IMG/VR virus record: IMGVR_UViG_3300035498_000744
Location: 64,001 to 114,142 of that record
Direction: 5' to 3' (one strand)
From: a virus
Length of the DNA stretch: 50,142 nt
The notes beneath the pieces are model-generated. The model saw only the letters and a program-made list of their open reading frames with translations. It was not told the origin of the DNA and searched no databases. The translations under genes were made by a program, and so were the position numbers. Every line of letters starts with the position of its first letter. Positions within the stretch are counted from its first letter, which is position 1. Positions 16,726 to 47,716 of the stretch are shown piece after piece.

Positions 16726-16794
16726 ATTAACCGCACCTCCTTTTTCTCTATAAATATTTTGAAAAAATAGCTTTATTAACTAACCATTATCGCC

Positions 16795-16830
16795 CAAAAG
16801 GAAATAGGGGAAGAATTACTCTTCCCCTAG
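16795..16830 (-). terminator. Hairpin terminator after a small gene
   Basis: AGGGGAAGAATTACTCTTCCCCT followed on the minus strand by a T-rich run. Confidence 0.45.
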
Positions 16831-18035: not shown

Positions 18036-21000
18036 TCACTTATACTTTGCATAAATACCAGTTATATTATTGCAATTGTCAAATGATACTGTATTAGCTG
18101 AAAAGGTAATCGTTCCTCTAGAATTAATATTCCATCTTCCATTGCTATAAACGCCTGCTGTCAAACCAATTACCGGTTCATCACTTGTGCCTTGCCCATC
18201 CGCAGAAATATAGACGGAACCTCCTCGCCCCCTAACAGCAATTTCCGCGTTCTTAGACTCTAGCACAATTTTGCCTCCGCTATTCTAACTAGTAATTAAT
18301 CCAATATTATCTCCACTGTAATAACTTGTTGTCTAGCAAAGATTCAACGTACTTCCTATCTTTATCCCCTAAGTACTTGATAAAGAAATATTATTTGCAG
18401 ATAATCCATTGCTGTTTATAGTCCAGCCACCAATTTCTCCCTCATCGGCATAAATAGTTCCCCTAATTTCAGCTCCTTCGCAACTCATCTTACCAGAGCT
18501 ATCAATCCAAAAATAGGTTCCACTAGAAAAACTAGGATTAGTATTTTCCGTTTCATTTCCGGTTAAACTATCTGCATTAACCCAAATCCTGTAGCCATTA
18601 GCACCAGAACTGGCAAGGCCAATTTTACCATTACTAGATGTGAGCCTATTGCTAAGAATTTTCCAACCGCCAATGGTTCCTTCTTTTGCAGTGAGTGCGC
18701 CAGTCTTAGTTACTAGAAATTTAGCACTAGAGCTGATAGAGCCACCAATCTAAATAGCGTAGGTATCACTGGAATTACTATTTAATTCTACATAATTCAA
18801 TCCACTACCACTGAATATCTTTCCAGTCTATATACTCCATCCGCCAGAACGACCTGTTCCGCCAATCTGTCCTTCCGTAGCATAAATTGTGCCTTGAATA
18901 TCGGCCCCAGTAGCCTTTAATTTCCCATCGTATGTTACATAGAAATTTTCCTCATTATTTGAAGATTCGGAATCCTATGAGTAGCCAACTCCTATGGCCT
19001 TAACATCACCAGCAACAGCCTTATCAGACAATCTTATATACATTCCATTTGGAGCTGACTATATAGTTCCATTACTTTTTACAGTAACATCTCCACCATG
19101 GATAACTCCACTAGTCCCATCTATAGTAATCTAGCCACCGCCACTTTTAGCTCCAAAATATGCCTTGCCGTCCTACATTAAGCCAAAAGTATTGACACCA
19201 TTCTGATATCCATATAGTCCTATTTTTTCTTGTCCGCTATCTTTGCCCATAACTACGCCGGTAAAACGATTATAGCTATCTTTTTCTCCAGCGCCAATCT
19301 AAGGAGCAAGTAATCCAGTCTGATAATAATATGTATCGGCTTTATAAGTGCTACTATTCAAAGCTATTTGAGTATAATATCCATTATCATCACGAGAATA
19401 ATAGACACGACCCTTGATAAAAGATCCCGAATCATCGAGTTTATAAATACCAGAAACCTAAGTGCCGTCCCATCCATTTATAGCTTCATTCCCATAAGCA
19501 TCGAGATACATAACAATAGGATGTAAAATATATTGAGAATCCGTGCACTTAAGTTGAAGGATTCCTATATTGCTATCATTACTGCTTGTATTTTCGTATA
19601 TAAAGGAATTTGCAGGCTTAAGATAAAAGAGATTCCCATCTTGCTCTATATTAAGAATGGAGGTATTTAAGGAAAGTATCGTGCTATTGCTAGATATATC
19701 TTTACTATTATATAAGAAAGTAATATTATTACTATAGAATGAAGGATTTAGCCCAGAAGTTGTATATTTAATATAACTAGGTATGCTAGAAATATCTACT
19801 TTAGAATAATCAATTCCTCCTACAGCAACATCAATAGGATAAAAAGCATAAATATAGGTTTTCTTATTGTCTGCTTTGTCAGTAATAGTGACCTAAACCT
19901 TAACGAAGAACTCAAGATTTGCGGAAGTCGACTCAGAGTTTATTGTACCTTGTCCTTTAACTACTACCTAATTAGTATCCTTCGCTGACAAAGTAACGTT
20001 GGCCTCTTCCCATTTATACGTTAAGCTGTAGCTACTATTGTTGTTTAATAGCTCGCCATTTCTATAAACATAGCATTTTAAAGAAAGAGAATTTTTCCAT
20101 CCATTATTATAGATTAAAGGATGCAACCCGCTTAGTTTATTGCCATCGCTATCACATGGTCTAATGGCTGTTATATAGGTAGTTCCATTAGTTCCTTGGT
20201 CTCCGTCTTTAAGGAATAATATCTCCTTGTCAAAAGTATAAATCTATTCATCTATAGTTACTATTCTTACTTTTAAAGTATTATTGTTGGAGTTAATGTT
20301 GTATTTCTATTTAATAGTATAATGTAAAATATTGGTATTGTCAACCCAAAGATTTTCAAACATGGAATTTGGGGGCTAGAGTTTCGTTCCCGTAGAAATC
20401 TTCTCTCCATCTGGGCTCAGCCATTCTATCTTATAAGAATTTCCAGTACCTTCTTTCCAAGTCAGTACAACTGATAATGTACGCTCTTTTTCCGAATCTT
20501 CAAAGGTGACGTCTCCATTAGCATCATATCTAAAATTATCTTCTCCGTCATAAGAAATATATAAATCTTCCTCTGATTTACTATTAACAATAGTCTACTC
20601 TAACGTTCCTATTATTGTTGTTCTATCATAGCCATAAACCGCACAGTAAAACGTCACGCTACTATATAAAAGATAATTGTTTACTTTAATAGAGCTCTAC
20701 TTTTTACCGTTCGTAACTTCAAGATAACTTCCGTCTGGGTAAGATAAATACCAATCTCCGAACAAAGACACATCATTTTTATTATTAATTAACTACAGCT
20801 TAATAGTATCTCCAGATGTAATTTGCTATATTTCATAATCATAGGAACTATTAAGGTTGTATACCGTAATCTCAGCACTTAAAGTAGTAGTTTCTTTGTA
20901 GGTTACTACAAGTTTATATCTGCTCTCGTGAAAAATATCATTGCTATCAAGAGTAAGAAGATTAAATTCTTGATTATTGGTTTTCTCTACTGCTTTCCAG

Positions 21001-22085
21001 CCGAATCCAGCTTCTTTGTCGTAGGCATCCGAACCTATCATTACGCTAAGATCTCTCTTAAACCATTTACACTCGCAATTGGTAGAATCCATAATAGATT
21101 CACCTTGATAGATAAGCTAACCTCTTAAATCAATAGAAGAGACAGAGGAAGTAATAGAGTTGCCTTTAGGCGCCTAAATATTAAGATAATAAAGATTCTC
21201 AGTCAGGTCTTTTTCTTCCACATAACACACTTCAACATTTTTTACAAAGATATTTGGCTCAGTAGTATTTTGCTTATTGGTTTCTGAGCCATTCACTACA
21301 TACTTGTCATACTCGAAATTCTCTTCAAATAGCTTGATAGATTTTAACCCAAGCAGATAGTTAGTTTGAGCTTTAAGAATTACGGATTGCGGAGTGTAGA
21401 CTGTAAACTGATAAGGAGCTCCATTAAATGAACTTAAATCAAGTTTGAAAGAGACTACCTTATCCTCGTTAGTATAAAACTCTATCTCTATACCATAATT
21501 ACCTTTGGTATGCTCAGATTGCAAAGTCGTTAAAAAAGACCCTTTAATCTAGATTAATTCATAGTTATTTGCATATTGCTGAAATTGTCCATGATATTGA
21601 GTTGAAGAATATTTATCTGCCCCTTTATAAATATATACTTGACTTGCGGAAGTCCCTGCTTCAGCGCCCGCTACCACTCCATATACAGCGCTCTCAGTCT
21701 CGCTTCCCGCAACTATATTACCTTTATTATAAATGTAGAATTTATCAAACGTGGGGCTTACTTCATTAATCGACTGTTGTAAAGCCTATATCTAACTATA
21801 TGATAACGACTATTCAGAAACTAAACTTAAAATAACTTTTTTGTTTGAGAAATTCCCCTCGGGCACGGTCACGTAGACGCTGTCCCCTATAGAATACTAT
21901 TTAGAGATATCACTGCTGTAAACAGAGAAAATATTCCCTGAATATTTTACTTTATATTCTCCAGTATCAAGATTTTCAATACTATATATCTAGGCTTTGA
22001 TAGTTTTATCATAGTTTAACTTTGAAATTTTCTCGTCTGTGACTATATCAATCGCAGATAAAAGTTGCTCAGATACGTTATTCAT
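18036..22085 (-). CDS. Distal-tail (Dit)-like N-terminus continuous with a tail-associated fibre-like protein: either one ORF of about 1349 aa or two same-frame genes
   Basis: RBS AGAAAGGAG then ATG 22085. Codon-checked 22085 to 21522 and 18450 to 18036; only TAG interrupts. ORF-track pieces 21174..21524, 20826..21092 and 18036..18266 are in the same frame. Ends TGA. The 18450–20826 stretch was not fully verified. Confidence 0.5.
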
Positions 22086-22107
22086 AATAACTCCTTTCTC
22101 TCTTTTA

Positions 22108-22135
22108 AGAAGAAGAGGGGAGGAAGTCTCCCCTC
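22108..22135 (-). terminator. Hairpin between the tape-measure stop and the next RBS (attenuator-like)
   Basis: AGAGGGGAGACTTCCTCCCCTCT. Confidence 0.35.
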
Positions 22136-22139
22136 TTAG

Positions 22140-25100
22140 TTAACTCTTCTTTCTTTTTGCCCACTAAGAAGCGTCATTTACAATGCTAGCAAAGGCATCT
22201 TCAATTTCACTCGAAGAAGTAACATTCGGGAATTCAACGTGTTCAATGCGGATATTTTGCTCTAAAGTACCATTATTCAAAGTCGGACTACTAGAAGTCT
22301 AGAGAGCTGATGCCATAAGAGCGATTCCCGCAGATGCATTTCCGTCAAGAATTTTTTCAATCTAAGCGAATACATCAGTCCCTAAAGAACGAATAGTCTA
22401 AACTGCCGTCAAGATATTTTCTGTATCGCTCTTGTTTAATATTAGCTCTTTTTCGTCTAAGAAAGCTAATTTTTTGTCATTAAATTCTCCTGTATATCCC
22501 CCAGTATCAAATCCAACTACTTTGATCCACTCATCTCTGGAGATATCAGTAAAATACTTACCGTTAGATATTGTTCGATTAAGTAGTTTCTATGCGTCTG
22601 GGTCTCCAGCGTCTGCGCGTTGCAATAGAGCGTCTATGCGAGCTGTAGTTGCTTGGCCATATCCTGTATATCCAGAGGCAATCTTCTAATCTCGCAAAGC
22701 CATATAGTTTTTATACTCTTCACTATATCCAGCATTACCCTTGAGATATTCTTCATACATTAACATAGAATAATCAGTATTATCAGTAGTTTCATCGACC
22801 CCACTAGCAGTAGCATAATTAGTAGCAATATCGTTTGCGATACCGCCCATGCTTGAAGCAGCGGCTTTAGCATTCTTGGCTAGGGTTGCATATTCTGCAC
22901 TTAAGTCTTGAACAGTTCCCAGCAAATTCCTTAAAGAACTTTCTGCGTCTAAAGCGGCATCTCGAACTTCATCTGTGCTTGTCGCTACATTAGACGTATA
23001 CTCAGAGAGGTCATCCATAGAAGTTCCAGTTTTATCGGCAACTTCTTTAACTGAACCCTAATAATCCTACCAAGCTTCTTCTAACTCATCTAGTAGACTA
23101 TCTAATTTTTCTTTAAAGGTCTTAGAGTTACTAGTCATATCGTTTAGATCTTTTGCATAGGTATTATCAAACTAATCTACAAGCTTTGTGTTATCGCCTA
23201 CAATGTTCTAAAGAGTTTCGCTATCTGAGGTTAGCAAACTTATAATAGAAGAATCAGAATTCTTGATAATTTTTTGTATATCCTCGCTAGTTATTCCAGT
23301 AATATCAGAAACCTTATCTCCGGTAATGAGAGCATTGTCTATCAGACTCTAGTTTCCAGCATCTGTCATATCCTTTATTGCTATCTACTTTTCGTTTTCA
23401 AGATATTTGATTTTCTCATTATAGTATTCAGTTAGTTCGGTTAATTTAGCCTAAGCCTCTTCATAGGTCAAAGTGCCATCAGCCATCTATTGATAAATTT
23501 CACTGACTTCCTCTTCACAATCTTGCATTGTAGAGATTATCTCGCTTGACATTTCTTTAACTTGCTTTTTAGCGATATTGTACAAGTCATTGTTTGCGTC
23601 TAACAGATTTTGCTCAGCGTCGGCTATCGAATTAGCATCTGCGGTATATTGATAATTCCAGTTTCCTTGACTATCCCGCACAAGTCTTAATTGACTCTTA
23701 TCATTCTCTGCATCTTCTAGCGCCATCTAAGCTTGAAGAACTTTATATTGAGCTTCGAGAATATCTAAGTCATACTCAGACAAGGTATTTCCTTCTCTTC
23801 TGACATCTATCTACTCTTGTAACGCTTTTAATTGTTCTTTATATTTTGAGTTAGTAGTATCGTCAATATCAGCCTAGAGTTTATTATACCAAGAAGAAAC
23901 TTCATAAGCCTCATTAACCTTATCTAGATAACGCTCTTCTTCTTCAATATAATGGTCGTACTTTTCGGATAGTAAATCTAGCCCCAGCCCCCCAGAAATC
24001 GCTTTATCATAATCATCAATTAATTTTTCAATGGCAGTTGTATATATCTCTTGAGTGGTCTCCATCGCCTCTTGAGCCTTCTCGAGTAGTTCCTCTTGAG
24101 TTGAATTGTATTCTTCAAGCAACGCATCTCGGTTTGCTTTAAGAGTATCATAGGCTGCGTCGGTTTCTTCAACTCCTACCAAATTCGCTTCTGCTTCTGC
24201 AAGCAACTCGCCCAAGTTTTCATATTTAGCTTTTAATACCTAGCCTTCAGCAATTTGCGCATTAAGTTTCTCCTAAGCAACTTTCTAAAGAGTATTATAA
24301 CCTTGAGTAGTCTTATAAGTTACCCCTTGTAGAGCATAAAGTTCTTTAATACTGCTAAGGACAGTCTAATTATGTTCAAGCTAATCTGTAAACTTAGCAT
24401 ATCTCTAAGAAGCCGCATCAAGAGCATCACTAAACATAGTTTCAAGAGACTCCGCATAATCTATTAACTCTTCTGCGGTAGAAATTGCCTAACTTTGAAG
24501 ATCTTTTAAACTATCTTGAATACGTTCTTTATCAGCCTAATTTGTAGCTTTTGCCCACTGCTCCATTAAATCATTATAGTTCTCTTGATAAGTTTCTAGC
24601 TTACTAATGTCGATTTGTGCCATCTCATAGCTTATCTAAGCAGACTATATTCCATGAGTAAGCTCATCGCCATAGGATTCCGCAATTTCTTTACTAAGCT
24701 ATTTAGCTTGCTTCTTTAAGTCTTTAACTGAAATAGTAACTTCCAGTTTATAATCAATAGCGTCAAGAGCTTTGTCAGCCTATTTCCGAAGATTCTCTTC
24801 CATATTATCTTGAACATCACGCATTTCATCTATATCATCTTCGTAGGTGTCCAAAAGCTTAATCTCATTCTCATATTTCTCTTTAGCCGTATCGACATTC
24901 TCTTTCAGAAGTTCCATTATTTCTTCTGAGGAGCCTGCGTCGATGGCTGCGTTGTAGCTCTCTACCGCTTCTTCTACAGCCCTATAACTCTATAACCGCA
25001 AATTGTTATAGCTAAATAATTCTCCATTTTCAGCAAATATATCTTCACCAAAAACTTGAATGAGAGCTGCTTTATCTTCAGTTAAATGCTAATTTACAAA

Positions 25101-28100
25101 GTTTAATTTATCCTAATAATTAGAATATTGCTTAGAAAGAGCTTCAATTTCTGCTTCATATCCTTTAACTTTATCTAAGCCAAAAGCTCGCTCCGTATTT
25201 TCTTCAAGATCTTCTAAAAGATCGTTCTGCCTCTCGATTTGGCGATTAACTTCGTGGTAGCGATCAATTATATCATCTAGAGTATCTAAATCTTCTTTAT
25301 CATATGTTTTAGTAGAGCCAGAGGAGCCAGAATCACTATCTGTATCGCTTAAAGTAGCAGCACTAAGAAGCTTGGATACCGCAGCTTTATTAGCGGCAAT
25401 CGAAGCATTAAGAGAATCTATATATTCACTTATTTGCCTCTTAGCGGCCCTTCCTATCGCTTTAGACTCATCTTTAGTATAATCCTATGTTTTGATTTTC
25501 TAGTTCTTATACTTATCTAGATTATAACCGTGTAAATCCCACTCAGAGTCTTCTTCGTTTATTTTGTTTAAATCTGGCCCAAGGTCTTCGATAAAACCTT
25601 CAAGGAGTTCTATATCTTTGCTAGTTACATCCGCTAAGCTAGAAGCGACAGAGCTGATTTTTGCAGTGCCACCCCAAGTAGTATCTCCAATATGCTGAAT
25701 TTCTTGACTTGCAGTATAAGCCGCAGACCTAATCTTCTCCATATTTTCGAGAACAGAAGTGGTGCCTTGCGCAATATTGTTTGCCATTCCCGTAGCGCCT
25801 TGCCCAGCATAATCCTCGATATTATCATATAGAGTCGCCCAATTAGTATTAGAAGTTGCGAGTAGATTGACTTCATCTTCTAGCATATCGCCATTATTTA
25901 GAGCTTGAGCATCCCTGTAGCTAGATAATAATTGTTCCTTTTCGGTATTGGTCAAGCTACTAATTAAAAGATCTCCAGATGCTAAATCTTCCGCGATCTT
26001 TAAACTAGCTTCTGCGGATGCTTTTTCGGCTTCTAATTGGGCGATATTGTCATTTAAAATACCAGCCTTAGTCTTTGCATCAATAGCCAAGATACCATTT
26101 GATGTATCAAAATACCGTTGATAAATTTCATCAGTTAACTCAAAGGTACCATCTTCTAATAACTTTGCCGTAGACATAAAACCAGAATAGACAGACTCTA
26201 TAGCTTTAGCAGATTCAAGACTTACGGACCAAACTTGCTCTCCTGCTGAATTAGTAACCTAAGTAACCCCCGAATCAATAGCATCAAAGACAGAAACAAG
26301 ATCATCTACAGAATTTTCTATCTAGGTTAACTGATTCTAATAATTAAGCTTGGCATTAACAGTAATATTATATTCAGCACTCTCGATCTTATCCTAAAGG
26401 TCATTTACTGCGCTTTCTTTTGCTTCTACTTTCGAGATTACTAAATCTGCGTCTTCTATACCCTCTTCTATCGCGTTAGAAGATCCATTAGAAAGCTCTT
26501 TGAACAAGTCTTGCCAGTCTTTGTGACTGATTTCCTGTATGACACTTGCGATTTCCTCCGAAAGAGTAAATTCTTCGCCGTTTCTTATAGCTTCTTGATA
26601 GTCTTCGTAAGCCTATTTTGCTAGTCCCCAAGCTTCTTTATCTTGTTCAGCTTGAGTATACTCCTCAGAACTTTTATCTTGTTCTAAGTCAGCTTGCGCG
26701 TCTGCTAATTGTTGCTATAAAATTTCGAGTTGAGCGACGCTACCTTCAGCAATACCCTCATAAGAACGATTAATTAAATCCTATAAGTAAGCTTTTTGTT
26801 CAACAACAGAGCGAGAAAGAAAATCTTCAAAAGAAATGATTCCCTCTTCGGCGTTACCCCAATCAAAACTACTCGCTAGCTCAGCTAGGCTCTCTGAAGT
26901 AAAAGTTCCATCTCCAAGGGCGTCTAAAGCAGCTTGCGCGGACGCTAGCTTATTAGTGGCATTAGTAGTACCTTCTAGTGCTTCCTAGTAAGCTGCGGCA
27001 TTTTTATAAGCATTCTTAAAATTACTGGCAGTTAAAGTTGCCCAATTCATAGAGGCTAGAACTGAGGCATCATACTTATCATCGCTAAAATAATCATCAA
27101 CCGAGCCTTTTAGCTCTTCATCGGTGATAATATCTTTGACGTCTTTAACCGCATTATAGATATCATTAAACTTAGATACCGTGCTCCCGCTAGCTACGGC
27201 CGCAATTATATTAGATATTTCTTCTTCCGAGCGGCCCTATTTAGCAAGATTTTCAGTTACTTGATTTACCCAATCAGCATAATCTTCATAGGTGCTAATT
27301 CCCTAAAAGCTCTCACCTCGCTCAAGATTGAGAACATCCTAACTTTCTTGAAGCTCTTTATAAGTTTCTACCGTGTCAGTTAAATTGTCTCTCCAAGCTA
27401 CGGCTTTCTGATATATCCCAGATTCAGAGAGCTCTATTGCCGACATAGAAGATACCATTTCATCTATTGCCGCATTAACCTGATCATAAAGTTCTACCAA
27501 TTCATCAGGGTTCGACTTATCAACAGCAAACTAAAATGTATCAGTCGAAAGTCCATTAGAAGTCACATAATTGCTACTAACATTCTTCTATAAGGCTTCA
27601 TAAGCTTTTGATTCTTCAGCCCCAGAACCACTAAATGAGCCCCTGTACGTTCCGCCAATTATGCCATAATTTATGCCCTCTTTTGCGGTAGACCACATCT
27701 ACTCGCCTGCGGCGTTTATCGCGGTATCAATGGCATCTTGTTCATTCGCAATGGCTTTTTCTTGAGCGCCTTTAGCTTTATTTAAAACCGCAACATAATC
27801 ATCATAATTTCCACTAAGTTTAGCTAGAGCGGCTCCTTCGATCTAGTAAGCTTCAGCGAGATTACGAGTAGCTTCATCCAAAGCATCTTTATTTTCCCCA
27901 CTCTCTTGGTAAGATTCAAGAGCTTCCTACATAGAAGTTAAAAGTTGCTTATTAGATTCTACTTCTTCTTGCGCGGCTTTGGCGGCATTAATCTAGGCCT
28001 AATATGCTTTTTCGGCAGCTTCACGTTGCTTCTCAACTACTTTAGATATTACAGTATATAAAGTAGTTAAAACTGTTATTCCTATTGTTGTGGTACTAGC

Positions 28101-30821
28101 AAGATTCTTAAGGGAAGAACCTAATAAGTTGGTAGAGGTAGCGGCAGCCTCGTTTCCAGAAATCGTAAAAGCTAAAGTTTTTCCCAAGAGATTAAATGCT
28201 ACTTGATCCGCTTTAGCTTGAATTCCAGTTTCTTCAAAGAATCTATTTAATGACGACTATGATTGGATTAAAGGGGGAATTACCATAGTTAACGCAGTAA
28301 TGCCCTAAATTAATTTTTCTGCTGTAGTTAGATCATCTGCATCAAAAAGGCTCCCTAATGTCTTAATACCATTAAATGCCACACTCAAAGAAGACAAAGC
28401 TTGAATAGCTTCTGTGGTTTTACTAGCAAAGTCCTTTACCCGCAAAGAACCAGTAACTAAACCTTCGCTTTCTTCATTAATTCTCTTGGTTGCGGCTTCA
28501 GTACTTTGAGATAGTCCTTCCTCTGCCATCGCGGCTCTTCGCGTTTCCTAGTCAAAGTTTTCTATATTGTCAGAAAATTTATCTGGTAGTATATACTTAA
28601 GAACCTCTTTTACCGCTTCTATCTTTTTTTCTGTCTCAGCAGAGGCCTCACTTAACTAGTTAAACTTTGACGTCGCTTCGTCGATAGAAGTAACATCACT
28701 AAATTCTTTTATACTCTATAATGCTTTTAAGCTTTTCTCGTCTATCGTCCCAAATGTATTTTCAAGTTCTTGATAAGCACTTAGGCTACTCTCTTGGACC
28801 CCGGCCTCTGATGATAATTTCTTAAGACTATTAGCTAAGTTGCTAATTATAGTAGGTAATTTAGCATTTTCAGTGAAGATTGATGTATCTTCAAGCAAGT
28901 CCTGGACATTTTGTTTTTCACTTCCGCTAACAAAAGAACGAACTTTAGTAGCATTTATACCCCTTTTGCCTCTAGTTGATTTTAAGCTAAATTCCGCCTA
29001 GTCTGCTAATTCCTAAGCGCTTTTTTTCTAGTCCGCGTAAAGCTAAGCTTGAGTCTCAAGATTCTTAATTCTCTATAAGTCTTTTTCGATTATAGCCTTA
29101 GTAGACTCATCTAAACTCAAAGATTGCTTATTTATTTCTGCCTCAAGAGACATTTCTTGTTGTTTTAGCTCAAGAATCCGGTTTTGGTCAGCATTAATAT
29201 CCTTAAGACCATTCATACTAATAACAAGATCTGCCGCTTGTTCTTGAGTGGCAATGGCTTGCTGCTATGCCTCTTTAGTAACGAAACTTAAACTAGTTGC
29301 AACGTCTCTAATCGACTAAGACATTTTATTTCCAAATGCCTTGGACATTAAAGCAGCGCTGATAGAAAAAACGCCCTGCATACCACCGGCCGCATCTATA
29401 ACATTAGCAATGCCAGAGAGGATAGGCGTAAAAATATTATCTAGATTAATAAAGAAATCTTCGTTGATTAAGCTATCATAAATGTCTTCACTTGCGGCAG
29501 TCACTCTATCGCGAGCAGCTTCCCAAGATTCAGCGTAAATATTAGCTTGCTTTTGAAGAGTCCCCTCAGAAGCATAGGCAGTTTTTAGATTATTTTGGAA
29601 ATCACTCCAATTATTCATGAGGGCCATAAGCTAGGTATATTGTCTCGTTCCAGCTACAGTCTGGGCTAAAGCAACCTACTGAGAAGAAGAAATTTCTCCC
29701 CATTTCTAACCCAACTCATCAAGAATATTGTCCATATCTTTGAGCTCTCCATTAGCATCAATGATATTGACTCCAACTTGATATAAAGCCTTAGAATATG
29801 TATCTAATGTGACTCCATCATCTAAGGTTTCCCCAAGACTTAAATCTTGAATACGCGCGAACAGTGTCTTGAAGGCTGTACCTACTACGTCAGCTGACTG
29901 CCGCGTAGTAGCAGTAACAGTAGCCAATGCAGAAGTAGCATACTCATAACTTAAGCCTACTGATTCACCGATCGCCGCAAACTTTTCAAGTCCTTCAGCA
30001 ATCTCTTGAGAACTAGATGCGGTCGTAGCACCTAATGCAGTCATAACATCTACATAATATTCTAGACTTTTGCTACCGTCATCAAAGTTATTCCATACAG
30101 CAGTTAGCTACTCAGAGGCGGTTTCCGCAGACTAAGCAGATACATTGGCAAACTTAATAGTCGCTTCAGTTCTCTCTTGCACAGCTTCGTCATCCAAGCC
30201 CTACTGAAAATAAATCAAGGATGCGTCTGTATAATCAGTAGTTGTAGTACTCAAAGACTAAGCAGCTTTGTTTGCCTATTCAGCGAATGCCGCCATATCT
30301 TCAGCAGACTTCTAAGTAACTATACGTATACTATTAAGCGACTCATTTAAATCTTGAGTATACCCATAAGCATGGGAAACTGCACTAGTAAACCCTTGCA
30401 GCATACTAGAGGTTAATTGCCACCTCATAGTATTCTTCATCGTTGTCCACAAGGAATCCATAAGCTTGTTAGTCCGCATTAAAGGCATTTCCGCAGAAGT
30501 GATAGCCTCAGCCACTTGCATAAAAGCCTATTCACCATCGGGCCCCAGCATACTCAACTAATAAGCATAATCTTCAAGGTTTTTCCCGCTCGCCTTAAGA
30601 TTATCATTAAACATAGACAGATCAAACTTGCCAGTGCTTTCATTTACCGCACTTTTAATATTATCAGCTAGTTCTAAAGCTGTCGCAGAAGTTTTTGACA
30701 AAGCAATCTGAGGAGCTGTACTAAGCTTATTTAGAGACTCTAAAGCTCGCTTCATCTAAGTTTCAAACTAGCTAGTATCAGCAGTAATACCAATTTGATA
30801 AGTATACTTCTTCCCCGCCAT
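22140..30821 (-). CDS. Tape-measure protein (about 2893 aa)
   Basis: RBS AAAGGAGAGG then ATG 30821. Eleven ORF-track pieces from 30755 down to 22686 share one frame. Codon-checked 30821–30750, 26400–26178 and 22686–22140 with only TAG interruptions. Alpha-helical, A/E/K/L/Q-rich. Ends TAA at 22140-22142. Confidence 0.6.
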
Positions 30822-30854
30822 ATTACCTTCCTCTCCTTTAGCTCAATATAAAAA

Positions 30855-42350: not shown

Positions 42351-42711
42351 TTAGTAACCAGCCTTACTCATTATGTAATCATAATTCATGATATTTTCAT
42401 CTAAATAGGGTATTTCAACAAGCGTAATACCTTTCAGCGCGCAAAATCTACGCTTTTGATTATCGTTATACTTTTGCTGGTATAATCCTCTATTTCCCCC
42501 AAATTTACTTACAGCTTGATAATGCTGCTTACCTTGATACTCAATTAAAAAATCAAGATTTCCATCGTCATCAAATACAGCAAAATCAAAGCTATCGAAG
42601 AGGGCGACCACTAGGCGCTTTTAATCCAGGGAATTCATATTCCTCTTTAAAGTTTATGCCATTACTTTCCAGGATTTCATGAATTTTAATCTCGCCACGA
42701 GAAGCTCTCAT
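42351..42711 (-). pseudogene. Vsr/DUF559-like PD-(D/E)xK endonuclease, split by a frameshift between its N- and C-terminal parts
   Basis: N-terminal part from ATG 42711 with RBS GGGGGTGG: MRASRGEIKIHEILESNGINFKEEYEF... C-terminal part is ORF-track 42351..42611: FDFAVFDDDGNLDFLIEYQGKQHY...LVEIPY. The two parts are 100 nt apart, so they lie in different frames. Confidence 0.4.
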
Positions 42712-42773
42712 TTGTAACCACCCCCTTCTTTATTATATCTTAAAAAAGTCTAGGTTTAATTATCTAGTTTTGT

Positions 42774-45704
42774 CATCCGAGGAACATAAAATCTGAGAAG
42801 TTATGCTTGCGGCGCTTGCGCTTATTGTCTTCATTTTCTCGGATATAGTAGATTGCATAAAGCAAAGAAGAAAATTTATCATGCCCAATATTCCTATTAG
42901 CAGGTTTTAATTTGATATTAATCCCCTCATTCTCCTCGCGGAGGTTGAGCATTTCTTCTTTGAGTATGTCTGTTAGCTGATAGGGAATAAGATACTCTGC
43001 TCTCTATTCAGGGGTCATAGATTGCCCCATTTTCTTACCCATTAGTTTTGCTTTTGCTACCCGCTCAGATATCAAAAACTTAATTTTCCCAGACTCAATC
43101 TAACTTTGAAGCGTTGAATAAGCAGTAGAATCAATGGGAGCATTAGCTTTAATGACATAAATAGCGTCATCTTCTGTATCATTTGTACGAAATCGCTTAT
43201 ACTCCTAATCTGCATCTGTATAAGTTCCGCCTATCACCCCAAATGGAGGATAAACATCTCCTTCTTCTGTTATTTGACGTTTAACCATATAGTCCATAAG
43301 ACCAATCCCTACAATACCTTCCACATAGCTCGCTATTTCTATGTGCGTTCTTTTATGAACTGCTTATAGTTTCCCATAAGTTGAGACTATCTCTTTCTCT
43401 CAATGAGAGATCTTCCATTTCGACCACCAATCGCTTGCGGCCTACGTCTTTCGACTAGTCGTTGAACCTTTTCTTTCATCAATAGAAAAGAACTTGGCTG
43501 CGGATTAGCTTGCTTATTAAAGTTTAGCTTTCCCGCAATTAAAAAGATTTGCATCATGCAGTCGCCTACATGAGGGGCTATTTTATTAACCCGTTTCCAT
43601 CTATGACTAAACGTCTTGCCTTATAACGATAATATAACTTTTTAAGCTTGATAGCTTGTTCTTCAAAATGTAGTTCATTTTCCGCAAAAACATAAAGATT
43701 AACTAAAGTCTTTATAGAACTACCATCTAATTGCGGAGTTACCTTGATTATTGTTGCCACTGACTAACAATCTTTACGTCCTACGTCTACACCTATTACA
43801 TAATAAGCTTGGCTTGAAGACCGACCTGAATATTCATATTCGGGTTGATTAAGTATTCTGTTCCGGTCAAATTTCTCGCCATTAAAGAATGCTCCATCTA
43901 CCGTTCCAGTCCACTTGCTTGACATTTATCTTTAAAACTATTCGCAACATAGTTTCCCTTTCGGCTCCACATTTCTGTAGAGATGAGACTATATCATACA
44001 TTATTATTCTACGTATTTCTTAATAATAATGTTTTTGTGCTTCGATTTAAGGGAATTTCACCCACCCCATTAGCTTGGGCCCTACTCCTATTGAACTTAC
44101 GTCCCAAAGGGATAGTCGTTGAACCTTCTTGTTATTTTAACAAGCTTGGCTGCCGATTGTCCAATCCTAAATAATTTTACCATCCATGTGCTATTACGCA
44201 CACTGCTACGCCAAAAAGCTGCGGTTATTTAGGCTCTAAGGAGTTTCCGGCAATTCACAAAATTTATAGAGTACACAAGTTTTATACTCTCTTTCAAAGC
44301 CAGCTTCATTAAACGTAGGATCTCGCTTTAAGTCATTTAAAAAATTCTTTCCCAGCATCCCCATCAAGACTGGAACTCTATAAGTTCCGCCCATAATAAA
44401 GGCTTTACCAGGTTCTGTAACCATCTACACTAGTGTTTGAATCAACTTCTAGTAGCTAAAAGTATTCTTATAGCCAGCCGTTGTAATGTAAAGCTAAGAC
44501 TGGTTTAATACCTCGTCTTCCTAGACTGTCCCATCTAAACACTAGCGTGAAACATTCATCATCAAGAGAAAAGAAACTCTTGGACTATCTCATCAACTAC
44601 TGCCGAAAATAGTTGCTGCGCGCTTCGGACAGCGACAAACTCTGCTCTACTGGGTTACACTCATCACCCTTAGTCTCTACACCTTCCTTTTTTAAGGCTT
44701 GGCACGGGATTCTCTATATTCCCCGTTAGCTTGAATCGCTAGATTCAAACACCCTTTTGTCACAGGTTCACGCAGTTATTCACTTGTAACTCACGCTACA
44801 AGGCCCCAATGTTGTTCAGGGATTAAAACTTCTTGCAAGATCTATTGGTCTACGCCAACGCATTCCTCTATGAGCCCAGCATGTTTACGCCGTCCTCTCG
44901 AGCTTTCACGCGCCGCTATATTCTCAAAATCCGACCCATTCTTAAATACATATCGACAATGGTCTTTGCCTTCTGCGGTTCCTGACCCTCGTGTCCAATT
45001 GATCTCTCTTTTAAATGCGGGAATCTTTTCACAAATATCCTTAACCTTCTCTTGCAGTATCTATGCAGCTTGCTCCTTGCCTCCAGCCGTCGAGAATACG
45101 TGCGCTCCTGGATAGAGTATACAACGTATCACCTAGACTAATACGGAAAGGAAACTTTTTGAGTATGCCATTTGCTTTCTATTTAGTTCGCTACGCTAAA
45201 TACGTTCTCTTATGAACTGCTGTATGTCACCATACAGATAAGACTATATCTTCACCCTCGGCTTTACGTTAGGGGCCTACTTTTTCGGATACCAATCGCT
45301 TATATCCTACTCCCTCTCAGGATAGTCGTTGAACCTTTTCTTCCATCAATAGAGAAAGAACTTGGCTGCTGATTGTCTTGGTCAAGATGTCCCAGCAATT
45401 AAATAGGTCCTTCATTAATGTTTCCATCAATGCACGCTATACTCTAACGTGGATACACGGCATATACATACTTATATCTAGCTGCCACGCGCAGGAAAAC
45501 ACGCTAATAAAAGAAGAGATGGAAGGTTAATTCCTTTTCTGGGTCTCCGCCTGTCTACATAAAATCTACAAATAAATCTGGATACTCTCGCCAGAAAGCA
45601 ATATATTGCCTCATTATAGGTTTAACTGCTTCTAGCCTTTCTTTTGAGATTCCTACTTTTCTGGTAGCAATAGAAGAGGAATCTATTAATGATTCTAAGC
45701 TCAT
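42774..45704 (-). CDS. terL: Terminase large subunit, interrupted by about 4 self-splicing-intron-like elements. Exons roughly 45704-45470, 45170-44781, 44466-44194, 43928-43578, 43360-42774
   Basis: Exon 1 starts at an ATG overlapping the upstream stop (ATGA) after RBS AAGAGGAGG. Exon segments align in order with T4 gp17-type ATPase and nuclease motifs by recall: YQR, PRQS then KS, NGS, EEC, GVDVG, GIGLMDY. Exon boundaries are approximate. TGA at 42774-42776. Confidence 0.55.
43361..43577 (-). ncRNA. Group I intron-like element in terL
   Basis: On the minus strand, in 5' to 3' order: P-like AATTGCGGGAAAG, Q-like AATCCGCAGCCAAG, R-like GTTCAACGACTAG, S-like GAGATAGTCTC. These are consensus elements recalled from memory. 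Begins at the in-frame TAA of exon 4. Confidence 0.5.
43929..44193 (-). ncRNA. Group I intron-like element in terL
   Basis: Q-like AATCGGCAGCCAAG, R-like GTTCAACGACTATCC, S-like GATATAGTCTC. Confidence 0.45.
44467..44780 (-). ncRNA. Structured intervening sequence in terL (intron of uncertain class)
   Basis: Exon 2 ends TGA at 44781 and coding resumes near 44466. Contains a perfect hairpin (TTGAATCGCTAGATTCAA), a GCTAACGGGGAA / AATCCCGTG element repeated near 46950-46990, and an S-like GAGATAGTCC. Confidence 0.3.
45171..45470 (-). ncRNA. Group I intron-like element splitting the terL Walker-A region
   Basis: P-like AATTGCTGGGACA, Q-like AATCAGCAGCCAAG, R-like GTTCAACGACTATCC, S-like AAGATATAGTCT. 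Confidence 0.5.
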
Positions 45705-46126
45705 GATTCATCCTCCTCTTTTTCTTGGTCTACAAATTCATTAAACTCAACAAAGTCCGCATCTTTTATTGGTGAAGAGCTATAGTTAAATAGCCTCTCT
45801 TCTGCGGCATTATTAACATCTTCCTCGGAAATTTTAGCGGCGTCCGCAATAGCTTCTTTTTCTTGCTCTATTGCTTTAAGACTATTTTCAATAAGATTAT
45901 TAAGACCAACTTCTTCGGTTACTAAATCATGAGTATAATTTTGCATATCTTGAATAACTCTATCTACTTTATCTTGTGGTTTATCTACATAATATCTTGG
46001 AATAAAACCATCTCGTTCGCACAAGGCTACTATTTCTCCAATGGAATCTATATAATCACCTTGTTCTTCCTTGATCTAAGCAGCAGTGCATATTACTCCA
46101 TTGTTTCCAATGGCATTGACTATCTT
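45701..46126 (-). CDS. Acidic protein directly upstream of terL (about 141 aa open frame with no canonical start); terS candidate or a 3' exon
   Basis: ORF-track 45701..46024 extends upstream through one TAG to TAA at 46127. Its TGA overlaps the terL ATG. The first ATG/GTG/TTG is an internal TTG at 46024. Confidence 0.35.
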
Positions 46127-46258
46127 TTACTTTCACACTAAGCGAAAGGAAACCATTTCAGTTTTCAGAGGCTTCGTTTCCTAAAACCTCACTACGTACC
46201 AATAGTAGCCTTACTTCCCTGCCCAGAAGGCCTAGGGAATAGTCGATACAGATTCAAA

Positions 46259-46900
46259 TTAAATATATTTAACTATATAGCCGTGATAAGGTTTGCCTTG
46301 AAGAATATATTTTTTTAGAGTATCGGTACTTCCATTCGGGCTTAATCCAACGAAAACTTTAAAATCACGTTGTGTTTCAAATTCCCGAATAAAATTTCCA
46401 TTCAAATCATAAATAGCTACTCCTTTTGCAGTAGGAGCTTTTCCCCCTTGCTTAGCTTCGCTCATTTTCTTTTTAGATTCTTCATTATGGTGTCGTCCCC
46501 ACCAAGGATGCTCCTCTTTGCAAAAATGTTTGCCATAAAAATAATTCTTTTCTCCCTTAGCAGCTTCCGAAAGCTTTCTTTTTCGCTCTGCTTGAGCTTC
46601 CTCGCTCATACCAGCACAAGGATTACTGTTGAATCCACCTTCGGCTATATTATAAAAATTCTCGTTAGCAACAGCATCATAAGCTTGAATCCATTTTCTT
46701 TCAGCAATGTTCATGCTTTCATAATCTTGGCATATCTCAAGTATCTCTTTCTTAAAATTCTCTTTACCATATTTGGAAACAGCTTTCTTAAGCAAGCTTC
46801 CACTTCCAATATAGCTATCATCAATTTCTCCATGATGCTGGCCTATATATTGCTTGCCATCAATGAGGTTAGTAGTTAAATAAATGTAATACTGCTTCAT
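46259..46900 (-). CDS. GIY-YIG homing endonuclease (I-TevI/Seg-like)
   Basis: N-terminus KQYYIYLTTNLIDGKQYIGQH is a GIY-YIG motif. RBS AAAGGAG then ATG 46900 (the track's TTG 46909 is less likely). Basic C-terminal DNA-binding region. Standard-code ORF. Confidence 0.7.
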   Translation of the reverse strand: MKQYYIYLTTNLIDGKQYIGQHHGEIDDSYIGSGSLLKKAVSKYGKENFKKEILEICQDYESMNIAERKWIQAYDAVANENFYNIAEGGFNSNPCAGMSEEAQAERKRKLSEAAKGEKNYFYGKHFCKEEHPWWGRHHNEESKKKMSEAKQGGKAPTAKGVAIYDLNGNFIREFETQRDFKVFVGLSPNGSTDTLKKYILQGKPYHGYIVKYI

Positions 46901-46990
46901 ACTACACAAACTCCTTTAAATATATTTAATAAGTTTTCCACGGGATTACCATGCCACTAAACGTGGTTTAGGCTTCCCCGTTAGCTCGTT

Positions 46991-47716
46991 TTAAGAAACG
47001 AACCCCAGTGGTAACTGGTAAAGTTTTTCACGGTCCACTATTTCGAACCTGCCGCTTTTCATCAACGTATCATACGCTTTAGACATTTTTTGGAAGCTAT
47101 CAATATCCCCAGCATCGAGCAACTAATTTGCTTTAAGACTTGTTTTACAAATCATAATAAGTGTGTCTTTATGCCCAGCAGTCTATATATCATAAGACTG
47201 CATAAAATCTCGATACAGTTGTTCTAACTTTACCCACTCTTCTGGGCGATAGCCTCTCCCCCATTTAAGCCTAAGCATGAGTCTATCTTCTTCAGTTAAC
47301 TGTTCTGAAAACTCATCTTCTACCCATTCTGGGTCTTCATATTCGGGAACTTCTGCCGCCTCTACTTCAATTATAGGTTTTTGCGGCGTTCGGTCTATAG
47401 AGAGCCTTTCCTAGACTTCTTCATCTCTCAATCCACTAGCTTTCATTGCTTCAATGGTTCTTTGTCGAGACTCTTCCTCGATTTTTTCCGAATCGGCCCA
47501 TGTATATCTATTCCATTGCCGCAGTTTCATCTTAGAAAGATATCTGCCTAAAATAGTTACTCCACTAACCTTTGTAGGGTCTTTTCCATATTTTTCCAGA
47601 AGGGAATCCCATTCCTCTTTGATATAGGGGACATCAACCTCTTCCAAAATCCACTTATAGGTTTCTGGATCCCAGTTATCTACGTGCATAGTTATACATT
47701 TCTTGCAAGTAGTCAT
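46991..47716 (-). CDS. Hypothetical packaging-region protein (241 aa; terminase small-subunit candidate)
   Basis: ORF-track 47411..47716 continues through one TAG to TAA at 46991-46993. A mid-point stop I first called turned out to be an indexing error. Confidence 0.4.

What the first reader, a model, noticed from the sequence alone, without database searches (positions are those of the whole stretch)
42774..45704. Large terminase gene split by four intron-like elements, one inside the P-loop
TerL-like coding segments occur in order on the minus strand but are separated by 220–350-nt non-coding blocks that begin at in-frame TAA or TGA stops. Three of the four blocks carry the group I intron P, Q, R and S consensus elements in the correct 5'-to-3' order. 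The fourth has different conserved hairpins. The first element splits the Walker-A region between ...PRQS and KSFL...
Basis: partly seen in the sequence, partly recalled or inferred. Interest (0 to 1): 0.8.

Follow-up and report, generated by a model that had tools for sequence, protein, structure and literature searches.

The report
Phage terminase gene with four introns
A phage DNA-packaging (large terminase) gene is interrupted by four small self-splicing group I introns, one inside its ATP-binding loop, in a phage that also reads the TAG stop codon as glutamine; the call is correct, but this kind of gene is already known.

Summary
The finding holds. On the minus strand, 45704-42773 encodes one TerL gene in five exons split by four ORF-less group I introns: I1 45446-45169, I2 44817-44563, I3 44283-43923, I4 43588-43312. 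Three pass Rfam's Intron_gpI threshold (86-98 bits). The fourth scores only 24 bits, but it belongs to a divergent group I subfamily whose structure is supported by covariation, and a homolog at the same codon in Enterococcus phage EF1 does pass the threshold.

Every intron follows a U that forms a U.G wobble in P1, and every intron ends in G. Removing them gives a 586-aa ORF that aligns end to end with uninterrupted TerLs (85% identity to the closest). All five exons are under strong purifying selection.

- TAG is read as Gln, with 14 in-frame TAGs in TerL.
- Exon 3 starts earlier than TAG-as-stop reading implies.
- The adjacent upstream gene carries a probable fifth intron (47045-46089) that encodes a GIY-YIG endonuclease.

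Multi-intron phage TerL genes are documented, and one relative here is split into at least seven pieces. This is a new member of a known kind, of moderate interest.

The parts
45447..45704 (-). TerL exon 1 (aa 1-86, ends ...AVYPR). The ATG at 45704 overlaps the TGA stop of the upstream gene. Contains 2 in-frame TAG codons.
   Evidence: exact junction from alignment to uninterrupted homologs; pN 0.107, pS 0.780.
45169..45446 (-). Intron I1, 278 nt, group I with a P7.1/P7.2-type insertion after P7, no ORF. It is inserted between R86 and A87 of the P-loop (phase 0). It begins with TAG and ends ...CAAAUG. About 50 nt at its 3' end lie beyond the Rfam model and are shared with I4.
   Evidence: RF00028, 97.8 bits, E 3.8e-24. 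(U before the 5' splice site, G at the 3' end). (alignment with I4 and the L007 intron). (P1 CACGU|UA / UAGCGUG with a U.G wobble, read from the sequence).
44818..45168 (-). TerL exon 2 (aa 87-203, AYSKSFL...QEVLIP). It contains the rest of Walker A and the Walker B-like GLIEEC motif.
44563..44817 (-). Intron I2, 255 nt, a divergent group I intron with no ORF. It lies after Pro203 (phase 0). It has two extra hairpins between P3 and P4 and almost no P5 helix.
   Evidence: RF00028, only 24 bits. (76% column identity to the EF1 intron at the same codon; that copy scores 52.1 bits). (at least 28 distinct family members). (P3 pairs 5/5 in 22 of 28 members). (26 pairs with compensatory changes; 94.7% of cells paired against 76% in shuffles, 0/500).
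44284..44562 (-). TerL exon 3 (aa 204-296, MMNVSRqCLDG...FEREY). It has 5 in-frame TAG codons, which hide its 5' part under the standard code.
43923..44283 (-). Intron I3, 361 nt, group I, no ORF. It lies after Tyr296 (phase 0) at the ATPase/nuclease boundary and has a large insertion in P5.
   Evidence: 86.2 bits, E 1.1e-20.. (P1 AGAGUAU|A / UGUACUCU with a U.G wobble, read from the sequence).
43589..43922 (-). TerL exon 4 (aa 297-407 plus the first base of codon 408; SSKWTG...VIDGNG).
43312..43588 (-). Intron I4, 277 nt, group I, no ORF. It lies inside codon 408 (phase 1) of the conserved nuclease-domain motif IDGNG|LGIG. It is closely related to I1.
   Evidence: 98.1 bits, E 3.1e-24. (a homologous intron, 112 bits, at the identical nucleotide position in L007)..
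42773..43311 (-). TerL exon 5 (aa 408-586, then the TGA stop at 42775-42773).
46089..47045 (-). Probable fifth group I intron (I5), 957 nt, splitting the upstream YonG_N-type gene (exon 1 47812-47046, exon 2 46088-45701). It follows ...AGGUU and ends ...AAUAUG. It carries GCUAACGGGGAAG...UAAUCCCGUGG (P4/P5/P4'), GUAUCGACUA (P7) and AAAGAUAGUCAA (P7').
   Evidence: the gene is a single 387-aa ORF in intron-less relative L089 but two pieces here. (the spliced junction MKSGRF|TAAQIK matches L089). (with the ORF deleted, the RNA folds with z = -3.36, forming a long-range P3-like helix). Against: Rfam gives no hit even at E <= 10.
46259..46900 (-). GIY-YIG homing-endonuclease ORF (213 aa from the ATG at 46900, preceded by AGGAG) inside I5. 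It has NUMOD3 and NUMOD1 DNA-binding modules and no TAG codons.
   Evidence: Pfam NUMOD3 2.6e-12, SegE_GIY-YIG 7.6e-7, GIY-YIG 4.8e-5. (phrog_314 homing endonuclease, 2.9e-40). (nTAG 0).
42351..42711 (-). Free-standing homing-endonuclease-like gene between TerL and the portal-like gene. A 4-nt insertion near 42591-42594 disrupts it, so it is probably a pseudogene.
   Evidence: phrog_9084 homing endonuclease 7.6e-27; phrog_559 2.7e-25. (intact 118-aa ORF in L089; here aa 1-39 and aa 40-118 are in different frames).

Best explanation
Window 45704-42773 (minus strand) is a single functional large-terminase gene of a TAG-to-Gln recoded, SPbeta-like phage of roughly 140-150 kb, judging from relatives' contigs. 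Four short ORF-less group I introns interrupt it.

Inferred mechanism. The late pre-mRNA is transcribed through all five exons. Each intron folds into the group I core and excises itself by the standard two-step, guanosine-initiated transesterification. The 5' splice site is the U.G wobble in P1 and the 3' splice site follows the terminal G. The spliced 1761-nt mRNA is translated into a 586-aa TerL only if its 14 UAG codons are read as glutamine.

The introns sit in or beside the most conserved motifs: the P-loop, the segment after Walker B, the ATPase/nuclease junction, and the IDGNGLG nuclease motif. Homing endonucleases typically target such sequences. The same or neighbouring positions hold ORF-bearing introns in other phages, while most close relatives have none. 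The four introns are therefore best read as endonuclease-less descendants of mobile homing introns.

Shown here: ribozyme-model matches, splice-site rules, exact frame restoration, TerL identity, purifying selection, and presence/absence polymorphism among relatives. Inferred: actual splicing, its timing, and past mobility.
For: Intron identity
- I1, I3 and I4 match RF00028 over the full model at 86-98 bits.
- I2 scores 24 bits. It is homologous to the EF1 intron at the same codon, and that copy scores 52.1 bits against a gathering score of 50. Another subfamily member, in L032, scores 60.2 bits.
- An RNAalifold consensus of 13 subfamily cores recovers P3, P4, P6, P7.1, P7.2 and P8, with 26 of 42 pairs showing compensatory changes.
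- Controls on that structure: 94.7% of cells paired against 76.0% in shuffles (0/500), and 38-43% when the 3' partners are slid.

Splice sites and product
- All four introns follow a U and end in G. Excision gives a 1761-nt ORF with no frameshift.
- The junctions reproduce the uninterrupted homologs: YPR|AYSKSF, LIP|MMNVSR, REY|SSKW, GNG|LGIG.
- Full-length matches: P0001 at 85% identity, and Enterococcus, Geobacillus and SPbeta-like TerLs at 93-100% coverage.
- Fold search with a model of P0001 returns large terminases as the top 34 hits.
- PRAYSKS lies in the loop between a strand and a helix, the P-loop position.
- pN is 0.085-0.122 against pS 0.77-0.94 in every exon.

Recoding
- Reading TAG as sense doubles the ORF content of the window.
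- In-frame TAGs align with invariant Q67 and Q226.

Mobility signature
- Relatives L005, L081-L087 and P0001 are intron-less.
- L007 shares site 4 exactly.
- EF1, L021, L066 and eight other loci share site 2. Some of those inserts are about 1 kb, large enough to hold an ORF.
- L006 has an HNH-ORF-bearing intron 4 nt downstream of site 1.
- EF1 has an HNH-bearing intron 2 nt upstream of site 3.
Against: - No RNA data exist, so splicing is inferred.
- I2 is below Rfam's threshold. It has almost no P5 helix (only L066 shares this), so its autonomous activity is uncertain.
- No suppressor tRNA is present in the 50-kb window.
- The TerL family has no Pfam or PDB sequence match. The fold model was only moderately confident (pLDDT 56) and was made for a homolog, not for the window's own product.
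- Under TAG = Gln, ribosomes could read 35-90 nt into I1, I3 and I4 before reaching a stop. This might interfere with ribozyme folding.
Confidence: 0.9

Rival explanations
1. The gene is a decaying or pseudogenised terminase. On this reading the blocks are junk insertions and no full-length TerL is made.
For: The flanking homing-endonuclease-like gene 42351-42711 does carry a disrupting 4-nt insertion, so some decay occurs at this locus. I2 lacks a normal P5.
Against: - Excision at canonical U/G sites restores a perfect 586-aa frame.
- Every conserved motif is intact.
- pN/pS is about 0.13 in each of the five exons.
- TerL is essential for a tailed phage, and the surrounding late genes are intact under TAG = Q.
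Confidence: 0.03
2. The introns are real, but at least one of them (most likely I2, possibly others) cannot self-splice and needs a phage or host protein factor. TerL output would then be limited or conditional.
For: - I2 scores only 24 bits and has a near-absent P5.
- Several Bastillevirinae introns spliced in vivo but not in vitro (PMC11878797).
- Ribosome read-through into I1, I3 and I4 is longer under recoding.
Against: - The core helices P3, P4, P6, P7 and P8 of I2 are intact and fit the covarying family consensus.
- L066, at the same site, has the same minimal P5, and its flanking TerL pieces are readable in frame. The variant is therefore not unique to this window.
Confidence: 0.15
3. 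The five segments are translated separately as a fractured gene and assemble at the protein level, or the insertions are inteins removed by protein splicing.
For: Fractured genes and inteins are known in phage packaging and replication genes (PMC2677866 and PMC7886860).
Against: - Internal segments have no start codon or ribosome-binding site at their borders.
- I4 splits a codon (phase 1).
- All four inserts carry TAA/TGA stops in the exon frame within 8-29 codons.
- The inserts match an RNA covariance model, not Hint domains.
Confidence: 0.01
4. Beyond being selfish elements, the introns act as a regulatory gate. Splicing is GTP-dependent and sensitive to invading ribosomes. Together with UAG suppression it would time or throttle production of the packaging proteins.
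For: - Five introns are concentrated in two adjacent packaging genes within 5.3 kb, and none is detected elsewhere in 50 kb.
- A 'molecular on-switch' idea has been proposed for Bastillevirinae (PMC11878797).
- TAG is the first in-frame stop of I1, I3 and I4, so the recoding state changes how far ribosomes penetrate.
Against: - Most close relatives manage with no introns at all. A required regulatory role is therefore unlikely.
- The distribution fits homing at conserved sites.
- There are no expression data.
Confidence: 0.1

Closest known systems
Group I introns in TerL and DNA polymerase genes of Bastillevirinae (e.g. phage SIOphi TerL; PMC11878797)
   Same: TerL genes of phages of Gram-positive hosts are split by two or three group I introns. 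Splicing was verified in vitro and in vivo. The introns sit in core DNA-metabolism genes. A Vsr-like 'phrog_559' endonuclease is associated with TerL introns there, and the same family matches the gene downstream of TerL here.
   Different: Here there are four introns, all ORF-less and much shorter (255-361 nt against a mean of 802 nt). The TerL family is different (SPbeta YonF-like). The genome is TAG-recoded.
Enterococcus phage EF1/EF5 TerL (MF001358, MF001361)
   Same: TerL of the same family (46% identity), split into four pieces by three group I introns. The first intron is at exactly the I2 position and is homologous to I2. The third lies 2 nt from the I3 position.
   Different: EF1 uses the standard code. 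It has an extra site after Gly233 and no introns at sites 1 or 4. Its third intron carries an HNH endonuclease ORF.
Staphylococcus phage Twort orf142 (three group I introns in one gene; Landthaler & Shub 1999, cited)
   Same: Several small self-splicing group I introns with P7.1/P7.2 lie in one late structural gene of a Firmicute phage.
   Different: A different gene (tail tube), three introns rather than four, and the standard genetic code.
crAss-like Zeta/Delta-group phages (PMC7886860)
   Same: [quoted passage not shown] One MCP gene is split into five fragments. TerL with in-frame TAGs is documented.
   Different: An unrelated phage lineage (Crassvirales of Bacteroidetes). There, TerL typically carries inteins rather than introns, and the introns were recognised through their endonuclease ORFs. 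Here the TerL introns are ORF-less.
T4 td intron with I-TevI (GIY-YIG) - from established knowledge
   Same: The probable fifth intron has the classic layout of a group I ribozyme with a GIY-YIG/NUMOD endonuclease ORF looped out of the core.
   Different: The host gene is a YonG-like packaging-module gene. The ribozyme core is of the I2-like subtype and is not scored by Rfam.

Membership tests
Group I catalytic intron (Rfam RF00028) | Conserved catalytic core (P3-P8 with the P7 guanosine-binding helix) recognised by the family covariance model at or above the gathering score | tested here: met
   I1 97.8, I3 86.2 and I4 98.1 bits against a gathering score of 50, all full-length model matches.
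Group I catalytic intron (Rfam RF00028) - fourth element I2 | The same core, at or above the gathering score | tested here: inconclusive
   I2 scores 24 bits, below 50. Compensating evidence: a homolog at the same codon in EF1 scores 52.1 bits and subfamily member L032 scores 60.2 bits. The family structure (P3, P4, P6, P7, P7.1, P7.2, P8) is supported by covariation and passes the shuffle and slide controls.
Group I catalytic intron | 5' splice site after a U that forms a U.G wobble within P1; intron ends with G (omega G) | tested here: met
   the exon bases before all four introns end in T and all four introns end in G. The P1 pairings with a U.G wobble were read from the sequence. The same holds for I5.
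Group I catalytic intron | Precise excision restores the host reading frame | tested here: met
   The spliced CDS is 1761 nt (586 aa), colinear with intron-less homologs at all junctions.
Group I catalytic intron | Guanosine-dependent self-splicing activity | not testable with these tools
   Requires an in vitro splicing assay or RNA-seq.
Mobile (homing) group I intron | Intron-encoded homing endonuclease ORF | tested here: not met
   I1-I4 contain no ORF longer than 56 aa, and none of these resembles an endonuclease. Only the probable fifth intron, in the neighbouring gene, carries a GIY-YIG ORF. Related introns at or near sites 1, 2 and 3 in other phages carry ORFs or ORF-sized inserts.
Large terminase subunit (TerL) | N-terminal ASCE ATPase with Walker A and B motifs plus a C-terminal RNase H-like nuclease; terminase fold | tested here: met
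   - Fold search with an AlphaFold model of the 85%-identical homolog P0001 returns T4 gp17 (E 3.8e-8) and 33 further terminase chains as the top hits.
- PRAYSKS lies between a strand and a helix.
- There is a weak Terminase_6C match (E 0.0042, below the cut-off) and a weak phrog_5909 TerL match.
- Homologs are annotated as TerL.
- Synteny is YonG - TerL - portal-sized gene - YonD - YonB.

Caveats: model pLDDT is 56, and there is no Pfam or PDB hit by sequence.
TAG-to-Gln recoded phage (genetic code 15 type) | In-frame TAG codons in otherwise intact genes, aligned to Gln in standard-code homologs | tested here: met
   - ORF content rises from 9157 to 20011 aa when TAG is read as sense.
- One 2900-aa ORF contains 77 TAGs.
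- TerL TAGs align to invariant Q67 and Q226, and to Q478 in all three standard-code relatives.
- The TAG after the I5 junction aligns to CAG in L089.
TAG-to-Gln recoded phage (genetic code 15 type) | Phage-encoded suppressor tRNA(CUA) | tested here: not met
   ARAGORN finds no tRNA in the 50-kb window. The rest of the genome is not available, so absence from the phage is not shown.

The most novel reading that the evidence does not exclude
In this recoded phage the first in-frame stop of three of the four TerL introns is a TAG: codon 1 in I1, codon 16 in I3, codon 4 in I4. Once UAG is read as glutamine, ribosomes would run 35-90 nt into these introns, through P1-P2 and in I3 into P3/P4, before meeting a TAA or TGA. 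Splicing and TerL synthesis could therefore be coupled to the code-switch state. That would be a two-layer gate on DNA packaging that has not been described. It would be compounded by a fifth intron in the adjacent packaging gene, whose endonuclease ORF avoids TAG entirely.
Probability: 0.08. Interest if true: 0.6.

Novelty: new member of a known kind. Interest (0 to 1): 0.35.

Why it matters
Practical value. Standard gene callers will shatter this TerL into roughly a dozen fragments, because four introns and 14 in-frame TAGs act together. PHROG families 15503 and 24618 are labelled 'unknown function' and each covers only half of this protein; they may have been built from such fragments. Correct exon maps matter because TerL is the main marker for phage phylogeny and for predicting the packaging mechanism.

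Biological value.
- The locus gives a compact natural series of the homing cycle in one TerL clade: empty sites, ORF-bearing introns and ORF-less introns.
- It defines a hot-spot intron site (after Pro203) occupied in a dozen unrelated contigs.
- It shows that a whole group I subfamily, with two hairpins between P3 and P4, is poorly scored by RF00028.

None of this overturns current understanding.

Tried and rejected
- PDB sequence searches. Both the single spliced protein and a 6-sequence profile gave no terminase hit. I went to a fold search instead.
- Structure prediction of the spliced product. I used the closest database homolog, P0001.
- Exact-sequence look-up of the GIY-YIG protein. Nothing is on record.
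- Rfam on the 957-nt insertion in the upstream gene. No Intron_gpI hit even at E <= 10. That intron call rests on junctions, motifs and folding only.
- Literature search for 'P3.1/P3.2' hairpins in group I introns. It returned only irrelevant papers. I could not establish whether the I2-subfamily architecture has a published subgroup name.
- First anchor-based P3 test. It used the wrong register and anchors and gave a null result; it was corrected. The hairpin-A anchor test stayed mis-registered and was replaced by RNAalifold.
- A ViennaRNA z-score script for all introns timed out.
- Considered and rejected: inteins (stops in frame, RNA-model matches), group II introns or IS elements (no such Rfam or protein signal), and assembly chimera (insertions are precise, at canonical U/G sites, and shared with independent contigs).
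- My early assumption that the GIY-YIG gene was free-standing was wrong. It lies inside an intron of the neighbouring gene.
Full report
**Observation**

On the minus strand between 45704 and 42773 there are five TerL-like coding segments separated by four non-coding blocks. A whole-window Rfam scan at gathering thresholds gives exactly three hits, all Intron_gpI (RF00028) and all on the minus strand inside this gene:
- 45456-45220, 97.8 bits
- 44293-43965, 86.2 bits
- 43597-43363, 98.1 bits

All three are full-length model matches with E-values of 1e-20 to 1e-24. The fourth block gives only a sub-threshold hit to the same family at 44835-44577: 24 bits, E 9e-4 in a 951-nt search and E 0.05 window-wide. 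No other part of the 50-kb window gives an intron-like hit at E <= 1.

**The phage reads TAG as a sense codon**

TerL-like sequence runs straight through TAG codons, for example FFY-TAG-RVFLR.
- Treating TAG as sense raises the summed length of ORFs of at least 100 aa from 9157 to 20011 aa, mostly on the minus strand.
- One 2900-aa ORF contains 77 in-frame TAGs.
- In TerL the 14 TAGs include positions that are invariantly Gln in the family (Q67, Q226) and Q478, which is Gln in all three standard-code relatives. So TAG is read as Gln.
- No tRNA gene lies in the window.
- Relatives L005, L006 and L007 also have in-frame TAGs in TerL.

This matters for the exon map. Under the standard code exon 3 seems to begin at MVTEPGK. 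With TAG as sense it extends upstream to MMNVSRqCLDG.

**Exon-intron map**

I translated uninterrupted homologs found by tblastn (MT836163, Enterococcus phage VRE9_4, Geobacillus virus E3) and used them to fix each junction:

| Element | Coordinates | Notes |
|---|---|---|
| E1 | 45704-45447 | |
| I1 | 45446-45169 | 278 nt |
| E2 | 45168-44818 | |
| I2 | 44817-44563 | 255 nt |
| E3 | 44562-44284 | |
| I3 | 44283-43923 | 361 nt |
| E4 | 43922-43589 | |
| I4 | 43588-43312 | 277 nt, splits codon 408 |
| E5 | 43311-42773 | includes the TGA stop |

Every intron is preceded by a U and ends in G. In each case that U forms a U.G wobble in a P1 hairpin with the internal guide sequence; I read this directly from the sequence (for example I1 CACGU|UA with UAGCGUG, I4 GGGU|UA with UAGCCC).

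The spliced CDS is 1761 nt (586 aa). The junctions are:
- AVYPR|AYSKSFL
- EVLIP|MMNVSR
- FEREY|SSKWTG
- IDGNG|LGIGL

The basic claim that the first intron lies in the Walker A loop is right.

**Identity and integrity of the protein**

- The spliced protein aligns over 93-100% of its length with single-piece TerL genes of Enterococcus, Geobacillus, Alicyclobacillus and SPbeta-like Bacillus phages.
- The large protein database holds 7711 relatives at E <= 1e-10. The best are full-length and uninterrupted; P0001 is 85% identical and 585 aa.
- The family is outside Pfam: there is only a sub-threshold Terminase_6C match, and none of the 120 best homologs has a precomputed Pfam domain.
- It has no PDB relative by sequence or by profile.
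- I therefore modelled P0001 from an 18-sequence alignment. Mean pLDDT was 56, but 70-88 across most of residues 40-180 and 380-460.
- Foldseek against the PDB returned large terminases as the top 34 matches: T4 gp17 at E 3.8e-8, then HSV-1, Sf6, HK97, D6E, P74-26 and T7.
- In the model the invariant P-R-A-x-S-K-S motif lies in the loop between strand 80-84 and helix 93-105, which is the P-loop position.
- Synteny in the P0001 loci is YonG_N, TerL, a 118-aa ORF, a 503-aa portal-sized ORF, YonD_N, YonB. This is an SPbeta-like head and packaging module.
- Against the intron-less allele L089, every exon has pN 0.085-0.122 and saturated pS 0.77-0.94. No exon looks like decaying sequence.

**The fourth element, I2**

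I2 is 76% identical in alignment columns to the intron at the same codon of Enterococcus phage EF1. That EF1 copy passes Rfam's threshold at 52.1 bits.

Two pattern scans of IMG/VR with I2's conserved core returned many relatives, of which at least 28 are distinct sequences with the same architecture.

An alignment-independent test took the 5 nt upstream of the UGAAC anchor and the 5 nt after the GAAGYG anchor. It found 5/5 pairing in 22 of 28 members, with 17 different strand sequences, against 2.45/5 for non-self partners.

RNAalifold on 13 cores, run with no group I prior, recovered P3, P4, P6, P7.1, P7.2 and P8. It also found two extra hairpins between the 5' strand of P3 and P4. Of 42 pairs, 26 show compensatory changes.

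With the invariant P7 pseudoknot added, 94.7% of cells pair, against 76.0% in 500 shuffles (none reached the observed value) and 38-43% when the partners are slid. The covariation score is 0.516 against 0.143.

I2 is therefore a genuine group I intron of a divergent subfamily that RF00028 scores poorly. I2 and L066 are unusual within the subfamily in having almost no P5 helix. I could not find a published name for this architecture.

**Comparative picture**

Intron-less relatives at 62-85% TerL identity: L005/L081, L082-L087 and the P0001 loci.

Site by site:
- Site 4. L007 (81% identity) has a homologous intron (112 bits) at exactly the I4 position.
- Site 1. L006 (63% identity) has a group I intron 4 nt downstream of the I1 position. 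A 171-aa HNH-like ORF splits that intron.
- EF1 has three introns: one exactly at the I2 site, one after Gly233 (a site empty here), and one 2 nt upstream of the I3 site that carries an annotated HNH endonuclease.
- Site 2. The aa-203 site is occupied in L004, L013, L021/L026, L037, L038, L058, L059, L066, L069, L076 and L080. Where both flanks are on the contig, inserts range from about 0.24 to 1.04 kb.

One contig, L029 (IMGVR_UViG_3300045988_168855), has its TerL in at least seven pieces. At least two of its interruptions pass Rfam.

This is the classic signature of homing introns cycling through invasion, endonuclease loss and eventual intron loss. It also shows that a four-intron TerL is not exceptional.

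**Neighbouring genes**

Comparison with L089 showed that the gene immediately upstream of TerL is also split. It is YonG_N-type and a single 387-aa ORF in L089. In the window, aa 1-258 map to 47812-47045 and aa 259-383 to 46087-45710.

The intervening 957 nt (47045-46089) has these features:
- It follows a U and ends in G.
- It can form P1 (GGUU with GGACC, U.G at the splice site).
- It carries GCUAACGGGGAAG...UAAUCCCGUGG, GUAUCGACUA and AAAGAUAGUCAA, matching P4/P5/P4', P7 and P7' of the I2-type core.
- It contains the GIY-YIG/NUMOD3/NUMOD1 endonuclease ORF where P6 would lie.
- The spliced junction MKSGRF|TAAQIK equals the intron-less allele.

With the ORF deleted, the RNA folds with z = -3.36 and forms a long-range P3-like helix. 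Rfam does not score the element, so I call it a probable fifth intron.

The endonuclease ORF has no TAG in 213 codons, against 14 in 586 for TerL.

Downstream of TerL, a homing-endonuclease-like gene (phrog_9084 and phrog_559) is intact in L089 but broken here by a 4-nt insertion.

**Mechanism**

Established knowledge of group I introns implies GTP-initiated self-splicing of the four introns from the late transcript. Translation of the ligated mRNA then needs UAG suppression.

Bacterial group I introns usually carry an early in-frame stop that keeps ribosomes out of the ribozyme core (PMC2504315). Here the first stops are:

| Intron | Standard code | TAG read as sense |
|---|---|---|
| I1 | TAG, codon 1 | TAA, codon 16 |
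| I2 | TGA, codon 9 | TGA, codon 9 |
| I3 | TAG, codon 16 | TAA, codon 30 |
| I4 | TAG, codon 4 | TGA, codon 12 |

Recoding thus lengthens ribosome penetration into three of the introns. Whether this matters is unknown. It is the basis of the low-probability novel reading.

**Comparison with what is known**

- Bastillevirinae TerL genes are split by two or three group I introns, with splicing shown in vitro and in vivo and with exon skipping (PMC11878797).
- Twort orf142 has three introns (cited).
- B. cereus prophage TerL introns are documented.
- crAss-like Zeta-group genes are split into up to five fragments in recoded genomes (PMC7886860).
- The stop-codon-recoding survey mentions terminase genes fragmented by mobile introns in recoded phages.

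The present locus is a new member of this known kind. It is notable for four ORF-less introns in one TerL, a fifth in the adjacent gene, and their combination with TAG-to-Gln recoding in an SPbeta-like lineage.

**Verdict**

Corrections concern the exon borders, the nature of the fourth element, and the missed recoding. Novelty: new member of a known kind. Interest: 0.35.

Noticed in passing
whole window, e.g. 22140-30842 (-), 14038-16815 (-), 18036-22139 (-): The late-gene block on the minus strand is TAG-recoded: 77 in-frame TAGs in a 2900-aa ORF, 28 in a 1367-aa ORF, 22 in a 925-aa ORF. TAG aligns to conserved Gln. No tRNA gene lies in the 50-kb window.
   Followed up: partly
47045-46089 (-), with ORF 46900-46259 (-): A probable fifth group I intron (957 nt) splits the YonG_N-type gene just upstream of TerL and encodes a GIY-YIG/NUMOD homing endonuclease. 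Rfam does not score it. The call rests on comparison with the intron-less allele, the splice-site rules, core motifs and folding.
   Followed up: partly
46259-46900 (-): The intron-encoded GIY-YIG ORF has no TAG codon in 213 codons. TerL has 14 in 586, and the host gene's N-terminal ORF has 6 in 278. The endonuclease could therefore be translated without suppression, or it may be a recent import from a standard-code phage.
   Followed up: no
42351-42711 (-): The homing-endonuclease-like gene (phrog_9084/phrog_559, Vsr-like) between TerL and the portal-like gene is intact (118 aa) in the 85%-identical relative L089. Here a 4-nt insertion near 42591-42594 breaks the frame, so it is probably a pseudogene.
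   Followed up: partly
L029 (IMGVR_UViG_3300045988_168855), locus coordinates 13003-7083: The TerL of this 158-kb viral contig is split into at least seven tblastn pieces over about 5.9 kb. At least two interruptions are Rfam-passing group I introns and one is I2-like. It is more heavily invaded than the window's gene.
   Followed up: partly
I2 subfamily: window 44817-44563; L004 1068-1340; L013, L021, L032, L066 and others: This group I subfamily has two covarying hairpins between the 5' strand of P3 and P4. Its core sequences are GCUAACGGGGAA / AAUCCCGUGCCAAGCC / GGAAGGUGUAGAGACUA. RF00028 mostly scores it below the gathering threshold. It repeatedly occupies the TerL site after Pro203, sometimes with inserts of about 1 kb.
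   Followed up: partly
PHROG families 15503 and 24618: The two best PHROG matches to the spliced TerL are 'unknown function' families that each cover only one half of the protein (aa 14-232 and aa 354-585). They may have been built from intron-split TerL fragments.
   Followed up: no
window 45219-45169 and 43362-43312; L004 about 1630-1680; L007 about 325-368: I1, I4, the L007 intron and the second EF1 intron share a conserved 3' extension beyond the Rfam model: GCAGUUCAUAARAGAACG, then a hairpin, then a G-terminated tail. It looks like P9.1/P9.2 and marks one intron lineage that has spread to different TerL sites.
   Followed up: no
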